Of a stretch of DNA of 64,000 bases, positions 42,601 to 60,600 are shown piece by piece. Made by a program: the position numbers. Position 1 is the first letter of the stretch; each line of letters opens with the position of its first letter. The DNA lies in the NCBI RefSeq assembly GCF_003918875.1, contig NW_025767079.1, positions 4,898,001 through 4,962,000 on the forward strand, in the 5' to 3' direction. This DNA comes from Haliotis rubra. Taxonomy: Eukaryota.

Positions 42601-45600
42601 AACAAAACTGTTTTACCCCAACAAACAAACAGTTCACATTGGCCATGACGCTGCTGTCAATCTCATGGCAGGGACAGCCCTCAGACAGGCGATCATCGCT
42701 CTGGGAGGAACAGTTTAGGTTATGAGCCAGCATGTCTTGCATATGTCAGAGTGAGTGAGTGAGTAAAGATTTACAATCACATCGGCAAACTTATAAATTC
42801 GCGATAAACACAGTTAAATTTAAAAATAAAACAGTCGGCGTAGGACAGTAAAACAAGTACAATATCACGGGAAAGTACTTAGAACTAGTATCTATCTCTA
42901 AAATTTGATTTCTATTTCAAACAATACGATATATAAACGGACTATAGATCACCATACCATGGGGAAACACAGTACTTTTGCTACTGGCATGGACCCTAGC
43001 TGGATTTACACCATCCCTTCAGATGAAAGCGACAGGAGACAAATCTAGCCATAAATTAAGATCACACATATCCTATGATTTAAAATATGGTAGGTCTAAA
43101 CTTTCTTTGAATGTTTTGGGACTTACTTATCCGCATGTTTCAGAGTTTTTGCACGCTATTGGTGGCCGTCTTCACGAACAAACCCATGGGACCCTAGCCG
43201 AGAGCCGTGATGCGGTCCTATACAGTCAAGACATCGCGGCTCTCGGCTAATGGGAACCGAGCACAAGGCCTGAAATGCCATGCTGGCAGACCCAGCTAAT
43301 GCTCTATGAGGATATAAATATATAACACGTATTTTCCCAATCTGTGTAACATTATTTATGAAATTTTATATTTTAGATCACTTGGTAAATATCTTTATTT
43401 ACGAAGTACACCACTTCTGAAACAACTTTTTAATAAATTCAAGTCAGCGAGCCTGACCACCCGATCCCGTTAGTTGTCTGTGTTACTGAAGACCAAATCT
43501 TCACATGTCACAGCTTGTATTTTATACCTTCTCTTGGCGGAGAGTTTGTCAAAGACAACCCATCGGATAGAATGTTTCCAAAAGTTCCAGTAACGGGCGG
43601 AACTTCAAAATCTGCACTGCACCCTTGCACAAGAAGCTGATGTGTTCAAAGCAAGTACGTCCTCATCGCTATCGGTCCAGAACAATTTTTAAGGATGAAG
43701 AAATACAGTAAAAGCTTTAGAATTTGTTATTACTTTTATCAAATCTCATTTCATTTAAATTCATACAAATCCAACCACTCTCGTAAAATTTCATAAAAAT
43801 GTACATCTCTTTAAAATTTCAAGTTATTATCAGCATATACATTTGAAAACTTCCCTGACATTTTCCACTTAAAAAAAACGTGCGGATGTCTCAATACACT
43901 GGTCACGGAAATCAGTTTTAGCAAAACGCCTCCAGACTGAACAATTAGTGTGGTAAACTGCATTAACGAATGTTTAGCATGGTGAACGTCCGTCTTTTGC
44001 ACACATACAGGTCACACCAAGCCTACTCACATGCTAACATATATCACTACTGTGCAATTCAATTTTAGATTGAAACAGCCGAGAATCTTGTTTCAAAATT
44101 TCAAAATTGAGGGCATAGGAGTTTTCTTCATCTTTCCACACATCAACTGTCAGATTATCCCCCATCAAACTTTCTTTTTGATACAGCATGGATGCCGACT
44201 TAACATAATGATTAAAGCCCTGTGTTGGCTTATTTGCCGACTGCTCTCTGTGTGATATAGCCGCAAGACCATTCAGACAGTACCGAAGGTAGTTTATGTA
44301 GTTCGTATGCAGATTCGGGTCAGTCTCACTTCCGTAGACTCTCATATCAAAAGATGAAATTATATCCCTATTGGCTGGTTTTGAAAGTGGCTTCAGTATC
44401 AGAGGCTCTCCGTCCACACACAACTTGCCATATGTTTCTTTGTATTCCTGAGGAAGCTTTTCCGGAAGTCGTGTCGTCTTGGAAACGAAGACGTTCTGGA
44501 TCCAGCACCTTGCAAGAGGTTGCGGTATCTCCGGATGCATGACGCTGTGAGCAAGGACCATTGTTGAGTTGCCGATGTTGGATAAATACGAGTCAACGAC
44601 CAATGGTGCTTTCGGAGTCGATACGTCGTATAACTCTGGGGCTATTTCTAGTTTCAGTGACACGATAAATGGAAGGTTGTTTTGACACAAGAGGTGGTAA
44701 TCAACGAATGATCTGTTAGGGTCATCGATGGTTGGGATACAGAAGTACACTCGGGCGGAGTCGATCAGATGCAGGACGGACCACGGGCGTACTCGAGCTG
44801 AAAGAGATCACGTACAGGTACAGTATGGAATCCCAGAGGATACATTGCCCCAAACATGCAAAGACGGCTACAGATTTCCCTCAAGAAAAATGACATGAGG
44901 CGGTGGGGTAGCCTTGTGGATAAAGTGTCCGCTCGTCACGCTGAGATGAGGTGAGGTGAAATTGTGTTTAACGTCGCGCTTGAGAAGATTTCGCTCATAT
45001 GACGACGTGCATGCGTGTGTATGTGTATGTGCGGCTACTTGTACTAGCCCAGACGTAAGCTGGTTTTATAGTGCTAGCCCACTGAGATACCATGCCACAG
45101 TGAAGCATGAATACCCCACTCAGACACATTATACTGACTCCAAGCCGACCAGCCTGATGTTCCCCTTCATGCCGAGCGCCAGGCAGGGACCAACAAGTAC
45201 CATATTTTAACGTTTTTTGTTATGACGCGGTTTGGGATCGAACCCGCGACCTTCCGACCTCCGTGCGGACGCTTTAACCACTACACCACGGATGCGGTCG
45301 TCATGCTTAGGACCCGGTTCGATTCAACACATGGGTACAATGTGTGAAGCCCATTTCTGTGTAACTTTTCAAGTGTATTTCGAAAAGCGGTGTAAAACCA
45401 TATTATCTCACTCACAGAGATATAATGTTGGTTAAATGTTGCATAATACAGCTACAGTCGACTGTAATACTGCTGAAGATCAAGTCCAACTCGGATCTTC
45501 ACAAGTTTCAAATGTTGTAAGTTCAGTGAATTAGTGGAGGTTGTCAGGAGTTGTCATAACTCGTATCAACATGCACCGTGTATTCTATATGATTAAATAT

Positions 45601-57600: not shown

Positions 57601-60600
57601 ACCCAGCATGTACAACCCCAGGCTCCCAAAGTATCCAGCGGAGGTTCAGACAAGATTTGCATCTTTCCGAACATCGTCGTTTGTCTGGGAATCCATTCTG
57701 AAGGTACCTGGAGCCCCTCACGTGACAGCTAGTCTAAAAAATAACGGCGTTGTTGTGTCAAAGTCGACCAGGCGACCATGCCCGGTGCCAGATTGGTTTC
57801 GTGAAAAGTTCGGCCGACTGTACAACAAGGATCCTGGGGTTACCTTCAGGAAGGTGGAGACAACTCCTATCAAGATGTGCAGGGGAGTTAACTCTAATCC
57901 TTACATGGTAACAGTTAAAAGTCGGGATATCGATTCGAACCAACACACGAATACGGGTTTGTACCTACAGTACTGTCTTGACGCTCTTGGTGATCATTTG
58001 TTCAGGAACAAGATACAGTGCGAATTAAACACCGAGTCACTCCTCCTCAAATCGGCTACCTTCCTCCACGGGGGTGAGAGTGAGATGGCTGATGTGTTGG
58101 CTGTTGAATTCTGGGATGATGAAACTGATGCTGACATGATATGTTTTAATATTGTCAAGTCAGGAATCAGCATCTACCAGGCTCGTATATGTTTTTATCG
58201 ATATGATGATATATTTGAACAAACCTGCAGACTCTAGCGTCACATTTCAAAGTATAGAACTTTACTGTAAGCAGAAAACTGTGATTTGGATATGTTTATT
58301 CCAGGAACATTTTTGTTTACGTTTAGCGTCGTGCTTTCCCTTGAATTTGCAGGGGACACAAGAAATTGGATTCACACGTGACGAGCTTTAATCGCCGAAC
58401 TACCCCTCCACCCGCACACAGTGCCGACGAAGTACAAGTGTTGTCTTGGGATTAACTCCTCTATAATCCTGTTCTAACGCGTTATGTTAGCATTGGAACA
58501 TATATACATGGAAGATTGGAAGATCTTTGCATCTCCTTGACAATGTATTGTTGTACTTGTAACACTGTTACAAAGGTATGTAACTTTGGATCACGTCTTT
58601 GCAACGTTTATGGTAACAGGATGTGCCACCTTGGATGACGTGCCTACCACGGTGTAACAATGGGCTACTTTTTTCAACGTCCTTGAGAACACGATGCTAA
58701 AATTTGGTTTAACTCAATCGGAAGCTTGTTCAGCAAGAGCAGCATATATCTGTATTAGTATGTGTTCACCATACTGGCTTTGTATCCTGTAGTAAAGTGC
58801 CCTTTTCCAACCTTGTGCCTATTGCTATCCTTTTCACAAGGAGCGAACCCGTAAAGATCCGGGTTAGAATTTGTCTTTAGTAACCCTTGTCGTAAGAGGC
58901 GACTAACAGGATCGGGTCGTCAGGCGATTATTTACAGACCGCAGTCATATACCTGGAATACTGTTGAGTGCGTCGTTAAACAGCAAACCAACCAACCAAC
59001 CACAAGGCTAAATCCTTCACATACAGGTTATGTGTAGATATACAGCGCGAACAAAATGAAAGGTCCAAAAAGTTTCCCAATGGATGAAAAACCAAAGACA
59101 AAATTCAGATTCTACGTTTTCATAGTTTTTAATATATGTAGACACTTAAAGAAACACACACAAAATCATCCACAGCTATTTGATAAGCTAGAAAGTGAAA
59201 TGAAATTTGAAGAAATGAAAGAAAGCAGTAAAACAATGAAAACTAAGAAAGGGTTGTGGCCAAGGTTACTCTATATCGCCCTGTCTTTTCATCCTCGTTG
59301 CGGAAACGTTTGATATTAGTATGAGCGCCTAAAGACATTGCAGAGAGAACCAGACAAGTGAAGAATATGAATGAAGACAGTGTGCAGATAACTCACTTTT
59401 CTTCTGAATTATGCTTAATATTGACATTTTGCCTTCTTTGTGTAGCTTATCAAGATAACTAAAAAGTTTGAAAAAAGAAGCTATTTCGATGGTTTTCATG
59501 CTAGCACTAATATGAAACTGTCAAATCTGTCAGGATTTCGAGTATAACTATCATTCAGAAGAGTTTAAAGTATCACAATAGGATTTAACTTTATTTCAGA
59601 TAGGGTTGCTGATATAATACAAAGAAAAGGGGGAAATACTAAGTACTAACTGACGACTTGCTAGCTGGAAAAAGTGACATTAAAGAGAAAGACAATTTGA
59701 AGTTCACACTCGGATTTACTGACATTTAGATACCCCCCCCCCTGCAATTTATGTGCAAAGTAAGCGAACCTCCCCTGCATGTCATGTACAACATCGATGA
59801 CCCCGACCCCCATATTTTTATGCATAATTTTAAATTAGTTATATTTTCAAAATTTATGACACCCCCACCCCATCCGTACATACGTGCAAAATTGATGACC
59901 CTCCCACCTCCCTAGAACAAAATGTATGATGTGAGTGAGTGAGTTAATATTTAACGTCACATCGGCAATATCTCAGNNNNNNNNNNNNNNNNNNNNNNNN
60001 NNNNNNNNNNNNNNNNNNNNNNNNNNNNNNNNNNNNNNNNNNNNNNNNNNNNNNNNNNNNNNNNNNNNNNNNNNNNNNNNNNNNNNNNNNNNNNNNNNNN
60101 NNNNNNNNNNNNNNNNNNNNNNNNNNNNNNNNNNNNNNNNNNNNNNNNNNNNNNNNNNNNNNNNNNNNNNNNNTGTAAATAAAGCGATCGAATATAGCCT
60201 GCAGTTCCTTCCCTTTGTATGCGCACCACCAAGCTGAACATCTCGTGTCATATCCGGGTTATGGCTTCGCCGGTAAGGACTTTCGGGCTAATATACAGAA
60301 GCTAATTTGGTTCATGAAAATATGAACATGATAATTTACAAATTCATCTGTATTTGTGTGCCGAATGCCTACAATGCTGCTTGTGGAGAGATTCAAGATA
60401 ACGTATATATTTGACTCGTACAATGGCCAGACATTGCGATTTGTGGATCTTGAATAATATCTCTATAGATCTAATTCATTACCAACGTACACCCACATGC
60501 ACAAGAAATATATTAATGGTCCGATAGAGCATAACAGGACAAGGTGCGTACTCTAGTACGGATTTGTTGACATGTAACTTAAGGGTTCAGGTCTTTGTGA

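What the first reader, a model, noticed from the sequence alone, without database searches (positions are those of the whole stretch)
44034..58237. Thioesterase - PhyH dioxygenase - thioesterase trio: candidate animal acyl-tailoring gene cluster
Seen: within ~14 kb an intronless PhyH-type Fe/2OG oxygenase is flanked by two paralogous double-hotdog thioesterase-like genes that share a 101-nt phase 2/1 exon and the DxNxHxN motif. Thioesterase 1 and the oxygenase are head-to-head, with start codons ~1.1 kb apart (49243 and 50360). Known: PhyH-family enzymes often act on acyl-CoA thioesters, and hotdog thioesterases hydrolyse acyl-CoA/ACP. Inference: a co-regulated modify-then-release module for dietary algal (phytol-derived or branched) or specialised lipids. 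Such clusters are rare in animals. Caveat: both families can be expanded in molluscs, so adjacency could be chance.
Basis: partly seen in the sequence, partly recalled or inferred. Interest (0 to 1): 0.65.

Follow-up and report, generated by a model that had tools for sequence, protein, structure and literature searches.

The report
Abalone thioesterase and oxygenase gene neighbours
Two related thioesterase genes of a plant/bacterial type flank an iron/2-oxoglutarate oxygenase gene in abalone; all three look intact and probably stay neighbours within the genus, but nothing yet shows that they work in one pathway.

Summary
The three genes are real. The window is Haliotis rubra: every coding exon matches a RefSeq protein letter for letter.

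- **TE1** (LOC124287060, minus strand) and **TE2** (LOC124287057, plus strand) are 30% identical (E 5e-30). Each has a 101-nt phase 2/1 exon and the DxNxHxN motif.
- **The oxygenase** lies between them. It is a single-coding-exon PhyH-clan Fe/2OG enzyme of 369 aa.

One detail is wrong. TE1's start codon is at 46856, not 49243, so the two divergent start codons are 3,504 bp apart, not about 1.1 kb.

- **Fold:** TE1 folds as a FatA/FatB-type double hotdog (pLDDT 94). The oxygenase has a generic PhyH fold with an intact His-Asp-His triad.
- **Targeting signals differ:** TE2-clade proteins end in a peroxisomal PTS1 (7 of 7), TE1 does not (0 of 5), and the oxygenase has a C-terminal membrane anchor with no PTS1 or PTS2.
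- **Linkage:** all three are on one contig in 4 of 4 Haliotis species, with consecutive gene IDs in H. rufescens. In 8 other molluscs no sampled pair looked adjacent.

Both families expanded locally in the Haliotis lineage. The best reading is a neighbourhood made by duplication and kept by synteny. A pathway module is unproven, at about 0.2.

The parts
44034..44797 (-). TE1 (H. rubra LOC124287060), last coding exon plus TAG stop. It encodes residues 41-293, which is nearly all of the double-hotdog domain.
   Evidence: ORF. AG acceptor at 44798-44799. Its 253 inner codons are found letter for letter in P0283. 4HBT_2 scores 31.1 bits.
44301..44327 (-). TE1 catalytic motif ETDPNLHTN (residues 197-205). 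Glu248 lies downstream.
   Evidence: In the family alignment, 153 of 157 rows have D199, 155 have H203 and 123 have N205. E248 is nearly invariant. The motif aligns with NDLDVNQHVNN of UcFatB.
45664..45764 (-). TE1 101-nt exon, entered in phase 2 and left in phase 1. It encodes IGQQLGYTRQFLSPSSVRVRIPGGFPYEAFDGA.
   Evidence: The model places residues 14-27 in a beta-hairpin with pLDDT 96-98, so they are part of the fold and not a presequence.
46840..46856 (-). TE1 first coding exon: ATG plus MSAFK plus CT, 17 nt, with a gtaaga donor.
   Evidence: The back-translated pattern matches once in the window, against 0 matches expected. Sequence; checked against P0283.
47683..47718 (-). Possible upstream (5') exon of TE1. 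It matches residues 2-13 of the isoform X1 proteins of H. cracherodii and H. rufescens, but the start codon is ACG here with TAA just upstream.
   Evidence: tblastn gives 12 of 12 identical residues. Sequence.
50360..51469 (+). PhyH-clan Fe(II)/2OG oxygenase ('PhyH-a'), 369 aa, a single coding exon with a TAA stop.
   Evidence: The exact sequence is in the NCBI collection, on the 7.4-Mb contig. AF2 pLDDT is 91.5. Foldseek places it among PhyH-fold oxygenases.
50696..50704 (+). Codons for H113-I-D115, the first two iron ligands. The third, H212, is at 50993-50995.
   Evidence: H113 is invariant, and D115 and H212 are at least 90% conserved, in 64 sequences.
51380..51463 (+). C-terminal tail anchor: RRR followed by a hydrophobic helix that ends one residue before the C-terminus.
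   Evidence: Kyte-Doolittle mean 2.04 over 19 residues, and tail charge 0. AF2 helix at residues 341-368.
55505..55533 (+). TE2 (LOC124287057, isoform X2), first coding exon, 29 nt, phase 2.
   Evidence: Isoform X1 (P0290) adds upstream coding at 54712-54759 and 55388-55534.
56554..56654 (+). TE2 101-nt exon, phase 2/1, homologous to the TE1 exon.
57450..58237 (+). TE2 last coding exon plus TAG stop. It holds the motif DIDSNQHTN at 57926-57952 and the C-terminal CRL (PTS1-type) at 58226-58234.
   Evidence: 100% identical to P0123.
60824..60852 (+). First coding exon of a third paralogue, TE3 (LOC124287059). The rest of that gene was not found in the window.
   Evidence: Only this exon matched P0125 at 100%.
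53743..56089 (+). Segment duplicated in tandem as 59053-62387 at 81-88% identity. This is the TE2/TE3 duplication unit: upstream region, exon 1 and part of intron 1.
   Evidence: Repeat families D3, D4, D6 and D10-D13, offset by 5,310-6,298 nt.

Best explanation
The region is a local array of FatA/FatB-type double-hotdog thioesterase paralogues in the blacklip abalone, Haliotis rubra. TE1 is on the minus strand. TE2 and the start of TE3 are on the plus strand. One single-coding-exon gene for a tail-anchored PhyH-clan Fe(II)/2-oxoglutarate oxygenase lies between TE1 and TE2.

**How each enzyme most likely works**
- *The thioesterases* keep the Asp/Asn/His/Asn motif and the downstream Glu of plant acyl-ACP thioesterases, so they most likely hydrolyse acyl thioesters.
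- *TE2 and TE3* end in a PTS1 tripeptide (CRL or SRL here, SKL in H. rufescens). They would be imported into the peroxisomal matrix. I recall no acyl carrier protein in peroxisomes, so acyl-CoA is the likely substrate.
- *TE1* has lost the PTS1 and is probably cytosolic.
- *The oxygenase* keeps the His-Asp-His iron triad. It probably hydroxylates an unknown small or lipid substrate, with its catalytic domain facing the cytosol from a membrane. By mammalian rules an uncharged tail suggests the ER.

**Why they are neighbours**
Both families expanded by local duplication in the Haliotis lineage. Ordinary synteny then kept them together on one contig in four species, with consecutive gene IDs in one. 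Nothing indicates that they form one pathway.

**Shown:** the genes, exon structures, paralogy, folds, motifs, terminal signals, same-contig linkage in the genus and the TE2/TE3 duplication.
**Inferred:** hydrolase and oxygenase activity, compartments and substrates; gene order in the other Haliotis species, which rests on gene-ID numbers; and the absence of functional coupling.
For: **Gene models.** Every exon matches a RefSeq protein letter for letter, with GT-AG borders.

**TE fold and family.**
- AF2 pLDDT is 94.4 and pTM 0.92.
- The Foldseek rows listed down to rank 44 are all acyl-ACP thioesterases (2own, 2ess, 5x04, 4gak, FatA), TM 0.61-0.75.
- The family profile hits UcFatB at E 1.9e-12.
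- Motif conservation is given.

**PTS1.** The strict pattern [SAC][KRH][LM]$ is found in 52 of 160 family records, 7 of 7 TE2-clade records and 0 of 5 TE1-clade records. The control family of 123 PhyH-like proteins has none.

**Oxygenase.**
- pLDDT is 91.5.
- The triad is conserved across 64 sequences.
- There is a C-terminal transmembrane helix and no PTS1 or PTS2; 0 of 123 have either.

**Local expansion.**
- TE1, TE2 and LOC124280822 form one clade (SH-aLRT 87), and TE2 sits on a stem of 1.6 substitutions per site.
- PhyH-a, a2 and b form a Haliotis-only clade (SH-aLRT 92).
- TE2 and TE3 are a DNA-level tandem duplication.

**Linkage.**
- The genes share one contig in 4 of 4 Haliotis species, and H. 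rufescens has consecutive IDs 475/476/477.
- In 8 other mollusc species with both families sampled, the sampled genes were on different contigs in 7. In Mercenaria they share a chromosome, but the gene IDs are more than 1,100 apart.
- Bradybaena has four consecutive TE genes with no oxygenase between them.
Against: - Under random gene placement, adjacency of these two small families is unlikely. My estimate is about 2tp/G, or 0.002-0.012, using t = 6-15, p = 4-10 and an assumed 25,000 genes. The gene total is recalled, not measured.
- More PhyH-like genes lie near by. LOC124115480 (PhyH-b) is three gene IDs beyond TE2 in H. rufescens, and PhyH-b and PhyH-c share the 7.4-Mb contig in H. rubra. 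The two families are therefore interleaved more than once, which a co-duplicated two-gene unit or selection for linkage would also explain.
- TE1 (no targeting signal) and the cytosol-facing oxygenase could share a compartment, and they are the divergent pair.
- The check outside Haliotis covered only the family members that my searches happened to name. Contig identity was judged from equal contig lengths, and gene-ID distance stood in for position.
Confidence: 0.6

Rival explanations
1. The genes form a co-regulated 'modify, then release' unit: the oxygenase hydroxylates an acyl thioester, for example a dietary branched or algal lipid as its CoA ester, and a neighbouring thioesterase frees the product.
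For: - Two non-homologous enzyme families lie side by side, with one contig in 4 of 4 Haliotis species and consecutive gene IDs in H. rufescens.
- A further PhyH-like gene lies three gene IDs away in H. rufescens.
- Both families expanded in the same lineage and region.
- TE1 and the oxygenase are divergent and could both face the cytosol.
- A table in PMC6410316 (passage seen) lists the PhyH domain (9 genes) among up-regulated Pfam domains in scallop digestive gland after feeding on a toxic diatom. This hints at diet-responsive PhyH-domain genes in molluscs, not necessarily this family.
- Animal gene clusters do exist: the bursatellin cluster in molluscs (PMC11869996, passages seen) and sponge 'bundles' (PMC12833800, abstract and one passage seen).
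Against: - The start codons are 3.5 kb apart, not 1.1 kb.
- Nothing points to an acyl-CoA substrate. The best structural matches act on free small molecules.
- TE2 has a PTS1, whereas the oxygenase is tail-anchored without a PTS.
- No sampled pair looked adjacent in 8 other mollusc species.
- Order kept within one genus is what plain synteny predicts.
- The one bacterial relative found has no thioesterase next to it.
Confidence: 0.2
2. A peroxisome-centred reading. The oxygenase's tail anchor inserts into the peroxisomal membrane and TE2/TE3 sit in the matrix, so the neighbours serve the same organelle's lipid handling without passing a substrate directly to each other.
For: - 7 of 7 TE2-clade records and 52 of 160 family records carry a PTS1.
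- 62 of 123 PhyH-like proteins have a C-terminal transmembrane helix, and 38 of those 62 have a positively charged tail.
- The abstract and a section heading of Costello et al. 2017 (PMC5450235) associate a highly charged tail with peroxisomal tail-anchored proteins.
Against: - In the window's protein and its three Haliotis orthologues the tail charge is 0. By the same rule this points away from peroxisomes.
- The rule comes from mammalian cells.
- The catalytic domain would sit on the opposite side of the membrane from TE2.
Confidence: 0.1
3. The TE-like proteins are not thioester hydrolases. They could be double-hotdog proteins with another chemistry, such as an LnmK-like acyltransferase/decarboxylase, or lipid binders.
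For: - LnmK double-hotdog structures appear from rank 45 in Foldseek (E 1e-11, TM about 0.5).
- Identity to solved thioesterases is only 10-17%.
- TE2 sits on a very long branch, which suggests a change of function.
- The Asn201 column is Asn in only 68 of 157 rows and Tyr in 63.
Against: - All Foldseek rows listed down to rank 44 are acyl-ACP thioesterases with higher TM.
- Asp, His, Asn and Glu are conserved, and TE1 and TE2 both have the complete motif.
- The profile also hits YbgC/4HBT acyl-CoA thioesterases.
Confidence: 0.05

Closest known systems
Plant and bacterial acyl-ACP thioesterases (FatA/FatB, 'Fat subfamily' of the hotdog superfamily; solved examples 5x04 UcFatB, At-FatA, 2own, 2ess, 4gak)
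   Same: - Same double-hotdog fold in one chain of about 250-300 aa (TM 0.61-0.75).
- Same D-x-D-x-N-x-H-x-N-x-x-x-Y motif with identical spacing, and the same downstream Glu.
- The family profile finds UcFatB at E 1.9e-12.
   Different: - These are animal proteins. The hotdog census table in PMC516016 (passages seen) lists no Metazoa for the Fat subfamily.
- They have spliced genes and no plastid transit peptide.
- A third of the family has a PTS1, which points to acyl-CoA in peroxisomes rather than acyl-ACP.
- The Pfam N-terminal Acyl-ACP_TE model is not matched.
- Identity to solved structures is 10-17%.
Mammalian peroxisomal acyl-CoA thioesterase ACOT8 / TesB-like double hotdog (recalled; listed as 'Peroxisomal acyl-CoA thioesterase' in the table of PMC516016)
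   Same: What TE2 probably works like: a double-hotdog thioesterase carrying a C-terminal PTS1 and acting on acyl-CoA in the peroxisomal matrix.
   Different: - It belongs to a different hotdog subfamily. No TesB-like structure appears among the rows listed in my fold and profile searches.
- Activity and location of TE2 are untested.
Phytanoyl-CoA 2-hydroxylase (PHYH) and the PhyH Pfam family PF05721
   Same: - Double-stranded beta-helix fold.
- His-x-Asp...His iron triad.
- Pfam PhyH score just above the cut-off.
   Different: - No PTS2 (0 of 123) and no PTS1.
- It has a C-terminal tail anchor and an ordered extension of about 100 aa.
- No solved PhyH-family structure is found by sequence or by profile at E <= 1.
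- The nearest folds are small-molecule oxygenases: ColD, proline hydroxylase H11, KanJ, AviO1 and EctD.
- That human PHYH uses a PTS2 is recalled, not taken from a call.
Animal biosynthetic gene clusters or 'bundles' (mollusc bursatellin cluster, PMC11869996; sponge oro bundle, PMC12833800)
   Same: Non-homologous enzyme genes adjacent in an animal genome. Fe/2OG dioxygenase is named among the domains that often co-occur in bundles (one passage of PMC12833800).
   Different: - Those clusters were validated biochemically and found across many species.
- Here only two families are involved, there is no core scaffold enzyme, and no sampled pair looked adjacent outside one genus.
- The word 'thioesterase' occurs in neither paper's main text.

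Membership tests
Fat-type acyl-ACP thioesterase (double hotdog) | Two hotdog domains in one chain, with a fold matching solved FatA/FatB and bacterial acyl-ACP thioesterases | tested here: met
   AF2 pLDDT 94.4. The Foldseek rows listed down to rank 44 are all acyl-ACP thioesterases, E down to 3e-16, TM 0.61-0.75.
Fat-type acyl-ACP thioesterase (double hotdog) | Catalytic Asp/Asn/His(/Asn) motif at the start of the second hotdog helix, plus a downstream Glu. 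The catalytic role of these residues is recalled. | tested here: met
   TE1 has DPNLHTN and E248; TE2 has DSNQHTN and GGESEM. They align to DVNQHVN of UcFatB.
Fat-type acyl-ACP thioesterase (double hotdog) | Match to the Pfam Acyl-ACP_TE models at or above the curated cut-off | tested here: inconclusive
   Acyl-ACP_TE_C scores 21.1 against 21 for TE2 and 13.4 against 21 for TE1. PF01643 is not matched. 4HBT_2 is above its cut-off in both.
Fat-type acyl-ACP thioesterase (double hotdog) | Substrate is acyl-ACP of a type II fatty acid synthase | not testable with these tools
   The PTS1 on TE2 argues for acyl-CoA instead.
PhyH family (PF05721) Fe(II)/2OG oxygenase | Pfam score at or above the gathering cut-off | tested here: met
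   22.7 bits against 22, so only marginal. Many homologues carry a precomputed PF05721 annotation.
PhyH family (PF05721) Fe(II)/2OG oxygenase | His-x-Asp...His facial triad on a double-stranded beta-helix | tested here: met
   H113 is invariant, and D115 and H212 are at least 90% conserved, in 64 sequences.
PhyH family (PF05721) Fe(II)/2OG oxygenase | Basic residue that binds the 2OG C5 carboxylate | tested here: inconclusive
   R221, R226 and R228 are conserved after H212. I could not inspect the model coordinates to say which one, if any, binds 2OG.
Phytanoyl-CoA 2-hydroxylase proper (PHYH orthologue) | N-terminal PTS2 and location in the peroxisomal matrix (recalled) | tested here: not met
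   The PTS2 pattern is found in 0 of 123 family members. The N-terminus is folded into the core. The protein has a C-terminal transmembrane anchor instead.
Phytanoyl-CoA 2-hydroxylase proper (PHYH orthologue) | Detectable sequence kinship to solved PHYH or PHYHD1 | tested here: not met
   There are no PDB hits at E <= 1, with either the sequence or the profile.
Metabolic gene cluster | Adjacent genes of at least two non-homologous enzyme families | tested here: met
   TE1, the oxygenase, TE2 and TE3 lie within 17 kb.
Metabolic gene cluster | Linkage kept beyond close relatives | tested here: not met
   All four Haliotis species have the genes on one contig. In 8 other mollusc species no sampled pair looked adjacent. 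Sampling was partial and no coordinates were seen.
Metabolic gene cluster | Co-expression and consecutive steps of one pathway | not testable with these tools
   No expression data or assays were available.

The most novel reading that the evidence does not exclude
A thioesterase-plus-oxygenase two-gene unit was duplicated as a unit in the abalone lineage: TE1 with PhyH-a, TE2 with PhyH-b. It is kept together because the pairs act in sequence on diet-derived or signalling acyl thioesters. That would make it a small, animal-encoded lipid-tailoring gene bundle, built from a plant/bacterial-type thioesterase fold that molluscs also send to peroxisomes.
Probability: 0.15. Interest if true: 0.6.

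Novelty: new member of a known kind. Interest (0 to 1): 0.35.

Why it matters
**If the neighbours really cooperate,** this would be a rare enzyme gene bundle in an animal, and one that RNA-seq and two recombinant proteins could test.

**Two by-products stand whether or not they cooperate.**
- Molluscs and amphioxus carry a sizeable family of FatA/FatB-type double-hotdog thioesterases. A third of the sampled family ends in a peroxisomal PTS1. This suggests a peroxisomal acyl-CoA thioesterase of a different hotdog lineage from the mammalian one.
- The mollusc-expanded PhyH-like oxygenases are tail-anchored in half of the sampled members.

Four literature searches found no paper on the thioesterase family or this locus in molluscs. 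Two found no paper characterising the oxygenase family there. RefSeq calls all three genes 'uncharacterized protein'.

Tried and rejected
Rejected because the phase is wrong, and replaced by 46856. An in-frame ATG at 45790, just upstream of the 101-nt exon, is intron read-through and is not the RefSeq start.
2. **The isoform X1 first exon of H. cracherodii and H. rufescens.** It maps to 47683-47718, but the start codon is ACG here, so it cannot start translation in this genome.
3. **Gene neighbourhoods in prokaryotes as a test of coupling.** A scan of genome contigs with the oxygenase alignment gave 1 locus from 35 pattern matches, at 25% identity (Myxococcota MAG). Its neighbours were HEAT repeats and a weak polyketide-cyclase-like ORF, with no thioesterase. 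The test was uninformative.
4. **Sequence searches of solved structures with the oxygenase.** Zero hits at E <= 1, with either the sequence or the profile.
5. **NCBIfam.** Only sub-threshold YbgC/FadM matches for TE1, one negligible sub-threshold match (E 0.16) for TE2, and nothing for the oxygenase.
6. **Literature.** No paper on these families or this locus was found. The H. iris genome paper does not contain 'phytanoyl', 'thioesterase', 'dioxygenase' or 'peroxisom'.
7. **CpG or GC signature of a shared promoter** between TE1 and the oxygenase. Nothing stood out outside the oxygenase coding sequence.
8. **tRNA genes at 40-64 kb.** None found.
9. **A complex prediction for TE1 with the oxygenase.** Not run, because I do not claim that they bind.

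Full report
**Source and gene models**

The last exon of the right-hand thioesterase gene is 100% identical to Haliotis rubra LOC124287057. The oxygenase ORF is held letter for letter in the NCBI collection, on the same 7,398,166-bp contig. TE1 is LOC124287060 (P0283). So the window is blacklip abalone.

I searched the spliced genes exon by exon and did not join exons myself. Where a full-length thioesterase was needed I used the RefSeq record by its id.

Each exon's translation occurs letter for letter in the RefSeq protein, and all introns are GT-AG.

| Gene | Strand | Coding exons | Exon lengths | Protein |
|---|---|---|---|---|
| TE1 | - | 46856-46840, 45764-45664, 44797-44037, then TAG | 17 + 101 + 761 nt | 293 aa |
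| Oxygenase | + | 50360-51466, then TAA | one exon | 369 aa |
| TE2 | + | 55505-55533, 56554-56654, 57450-58234, then TAG | 29 + 101 + 785 nt | 305 aa |

The first exon of a third paralogue, TE3 (LOC124287059), is at 60824-60852. The window holds one run of N, which lies outside the finding. I left it alone.

**Checking the observation**

Most of it holds.
- The two thioesterase ORFs are 30% identical (E 5e-30).
- Both have the 101-nt phase 2/1 exon and the DxNxHxN motif.
- The oxygenase coding sequence is intronless.
- TE1 and the oxygenase are divergent.

The error is TE1's start.
- The ATG at 49243 runs into a GT donor in phase 0 and cannot join the phase-2 acceptor.
- The RefSeq start MSAFK occurs once in the window, at 46856, against 0 matches expected by chance.
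- The start codons are therefore 3,504 bp apart.
- A stretch at 47683-47718 matches the isoform X1 first exon of two other species in 12 of 12 residues, but its ATG is ACG here. It may be a 5' exon.

**What the thioesterases are**

*Family searches*
- Pfam gives 4HBT_2 above its cut-off for both genes. Acyl-ACP_TE_C is at the cut-off for TE2 only.
- An exhaustive HMMER search with TE1's last exon found 414 cluster representatives at E <= 1e-3, 139 at <= 1e-10 and 8 at <= 1e-30.
- I looked up 19 representatives from that search. Sixteen are from molluscs and one is from Branchiostoma. One is a JGI record named FadM, and one carries no name.
- The Atlas likewise shows mollusc-dominated clusters of 707, 114 and 85 members. 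Plant and bacterial acyl-ACP thioesterase clusters follow at lower score.

*Fold and catalytic residues*
- P0283 was modelled with an alignment of 88 sequences, chosen from the 160 TE-family records I used, and gave pLDDT 94.4.
- The Foldseek rows listed down to rank 44 are all acyl-ACP thioesterases. LnmK appears from rank 45.
- The family profile finds UcFatB (E 1.9e-12), Chlamydomonas FAT, and YbgC-type thioesterases.
- In 157 aligned sequences, D199 is kept in 153, H203 in 155 and N205 in 123. N201 is Asn in 68 and Tyr in 63. E248 is nearly invariant.
- TE1 and TE2 both have the full set.
- The 101-nt exon encodes a conserved beta-hairpin of the first hotdog domain, not a targeting peptide.

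**Targeting signals**
- The strict PTS1 pattern [SAC][KRH][LM] at the C-terminus occurs in 52 of 160 thioesterase-family records. These comprise 45 of the 148 representatives and all 7 TE2-clade Haliotis records (CRL, SRL, SKL).
- None of the 5 TE1-clade records, from 4 species, has it. None of 123 PhyH-like proteins has it either.
- The oxygenase has a hydrophobic helix that ends one residue from its C-terminus, preceded by RRR. Its tail is uncharged.
- In its family, 62 of 123 proteins have such an anchor, and 38 of those have positively charged tails. The PTS2 pattern occurs in 0 of 123.
- Costello et al. 2017 (abstract and headings seen) state that TMD hydrophobicity and tail charge together set the destination of tail-anchored proteins, and that peroxisomal ones have highly charged tails. 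By that mammalian rule the window's protein would go to the ER.
- All compartments given here are predictions.

**What the oxygenase is**
- The Pfam PhyH match is marginal (22.7 against 22).
- The family is large. There are 236 hits at E <= 1e-3 among 1,201 candidates, with 120 listed. The named ones are molluscs plus the annelid Owenia.
- In an alignment of 64 sequences (63 of the 120 listed hits, chosen for names and long contigs), H113 is invariant and D115 and H212 are at least 90% conserved.
- The model has pLDDT 91.5.
- Its best structural matches are ColD, proline hydroxylase H11, KanJ, AviO1 and EctD, at TM 0.38-0.66 and 11-16% identity.
- Sequence and profile searches of the PDB find nothing at E <= 1.
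- So it is a PhyH-clan oxygenase of unknown substrate. Nothing points specifically to acyl-CoA.

**History of the neighbourhood**

*The thioesterases*
- The tree used 57 rows: 27 named and 30 unnamed, chosen from 160.
- The TE1 clade, the TE2 clade and H. rubra LOC124280822 fall in one group (SH-aLRT 87).
- TE2 sits on a stem of 1.6 substitutions per site.
- TE2 and TE3 are a tandem DNA duplication: 53743-56089 against 59053-62387, at 81-88% identity.
- A further copy, LOC124287209, lies on the same contig.

*The oxygenases*
- The tree used 48 named rows.
- PhyH-a (this gene), a2 and b form a Haliotis-only clade (SH-aLRT 92), next to a Gigantopelta gene.
- PhyH-c belongs to another clade.
- PhyH-b and PhyH-c are on the same H. 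rubra contig.

Both families therefore expanded locally in this lineage.

**Linkage**
- In H. rufescens the orthologues are LOC124115475 (TE1), 476 (PhyH-a) and 477 (TE2), with consecutive protein accessions. PhyH-b is 480. All are on one chromosome.
- In H. asinina and H. cracherodii all the orthologues lie on one contig each.
- Consecutive IDs are only a proxy for adjacency. I could not see coordinates, because no eukaryotic contig collection was open.
- Outside Haliotis, 8 species had named members of both families. The members were on different contigs in Argopecten, Potamilus, Sinanodonta, Aplysia, Bulinus, Plakobranchus and Batillaria.
- In Mercenaria they share a chromosome, but the gene IDs are more than 1,100 apart.
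- This sample is partial: 120 of 236 oxygenase hits were listed, and only 19 thioesterase representatives were looked up.
- My rough chance estimate for adjacency under random gene order is 0.002-0.012. The total gene number in it is assumed, and it ignores both tandem arrays and the many family pairs a reader could have found interesting.

**Verdict**

The genes and their structure are confirmed, apart from one start codon.

The most likely account is a neighbourhood produced by duplication and kept by synteny. It comprises a cytosolic thioesterase, peroxisomal thioesterases, and a membrane-anchored oxygenase of unknown substrate (confidence 0.6).

No evidence I could gather positively supports it.

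**Not checked**
- Genomic coordinates in other molluscs.
- Expression.
- The closed metagenome and viral contig collections.
- Paper supplements. Those of PMC12833800 and PMC6410316 might list relevant gene bundles or differentially expressed PhyH genes.

Noticed in passing
60824-60852 (+); 53743-56089 against 59053-62387: A third thioesterase paralogue (TE3, LOC124287059) starts in the window. The TE2 upstream region, exon 1 and part of intron 1 are tandemly duplicated at 81-88% identity. TE3's later exons were not found before the window ends.
   Followed up: partly
TE family (proteins P0130-P0277 and Haliotis records): 52 of 160 family records end in a strict PTS1 tripeptide, against 0 of 123 in the oxygenase family. 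This suggests a largely peroxisomal, Fat-type thioesterase family in molluscs and amphioxus.
   Followed up: partly
PhyH-like family (P0001-P0120, P0278-P0280): 62 of 123 members have a transmembrane helix within 15 residues of the C-terminus (a tail anchor). 38 of those have positively charged tails. The Haliotis PhyH-a clade has uncharged tails, and its 328-aa sister clade a2 has no anchor.
   Followed up: partly
47683-47718 (-): A 36-nt stretch encodes 12 of 12 residues of the isoform X1 N-terminus of TE1 orthologues in H. cracherodii and H. rufescens. The start codon is ACG here and is preceded by TAA. It may be a conserved 5' exon or an alternative start lost in H. rubra.
   Followed up: partly
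45798-46255: A 61-nt minisatellite (7.5 copies, 90% matches) lies in TE1 intron 1, just upstream of the 101-nt exon.
   Followed up: no
45313-45363, 46384-46546, 47176-47273, 48951-49054, 51476-51624, 53459-53636, 56203-56358: Dispersed copies, in both orientations, of a roughly 100-150-nt element with a tRNA-like head (GGTTCGATTCC-like box). 'SINE' is my own label. ARAGORN calls no tRNA gene at 40-64 kb.
   Followed up: no
about 32751-39697 (-): Exon-sized ORFs match OST48 (DDOST) domains: OST48_MD at 33363-33602 and 32751-33065, and OST48_N below its cut-off at 39398-39697. An oligosaccharyltransferase subunit gene therefore lies upstream on the minus strand.
   Followed up: no
30791-31422 and 36677-37350: A 69-nt tandem repeat (9.1 copies, 95% matches) creates long ORFs on both strands, and there is a 174-nt repeat (3.9 copies). 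The Pfam hits on these ORFs look spurious.
   Followed up: no
22988-23227 (-) and 21383-21868 (-): There is a sub-threshold SAD_SRA match (28.5 bits against 30.7), and a 162-aa acidic, Ser/Glu-rich ORF with no family match. These may be exons of other genes.
   Followed up: no
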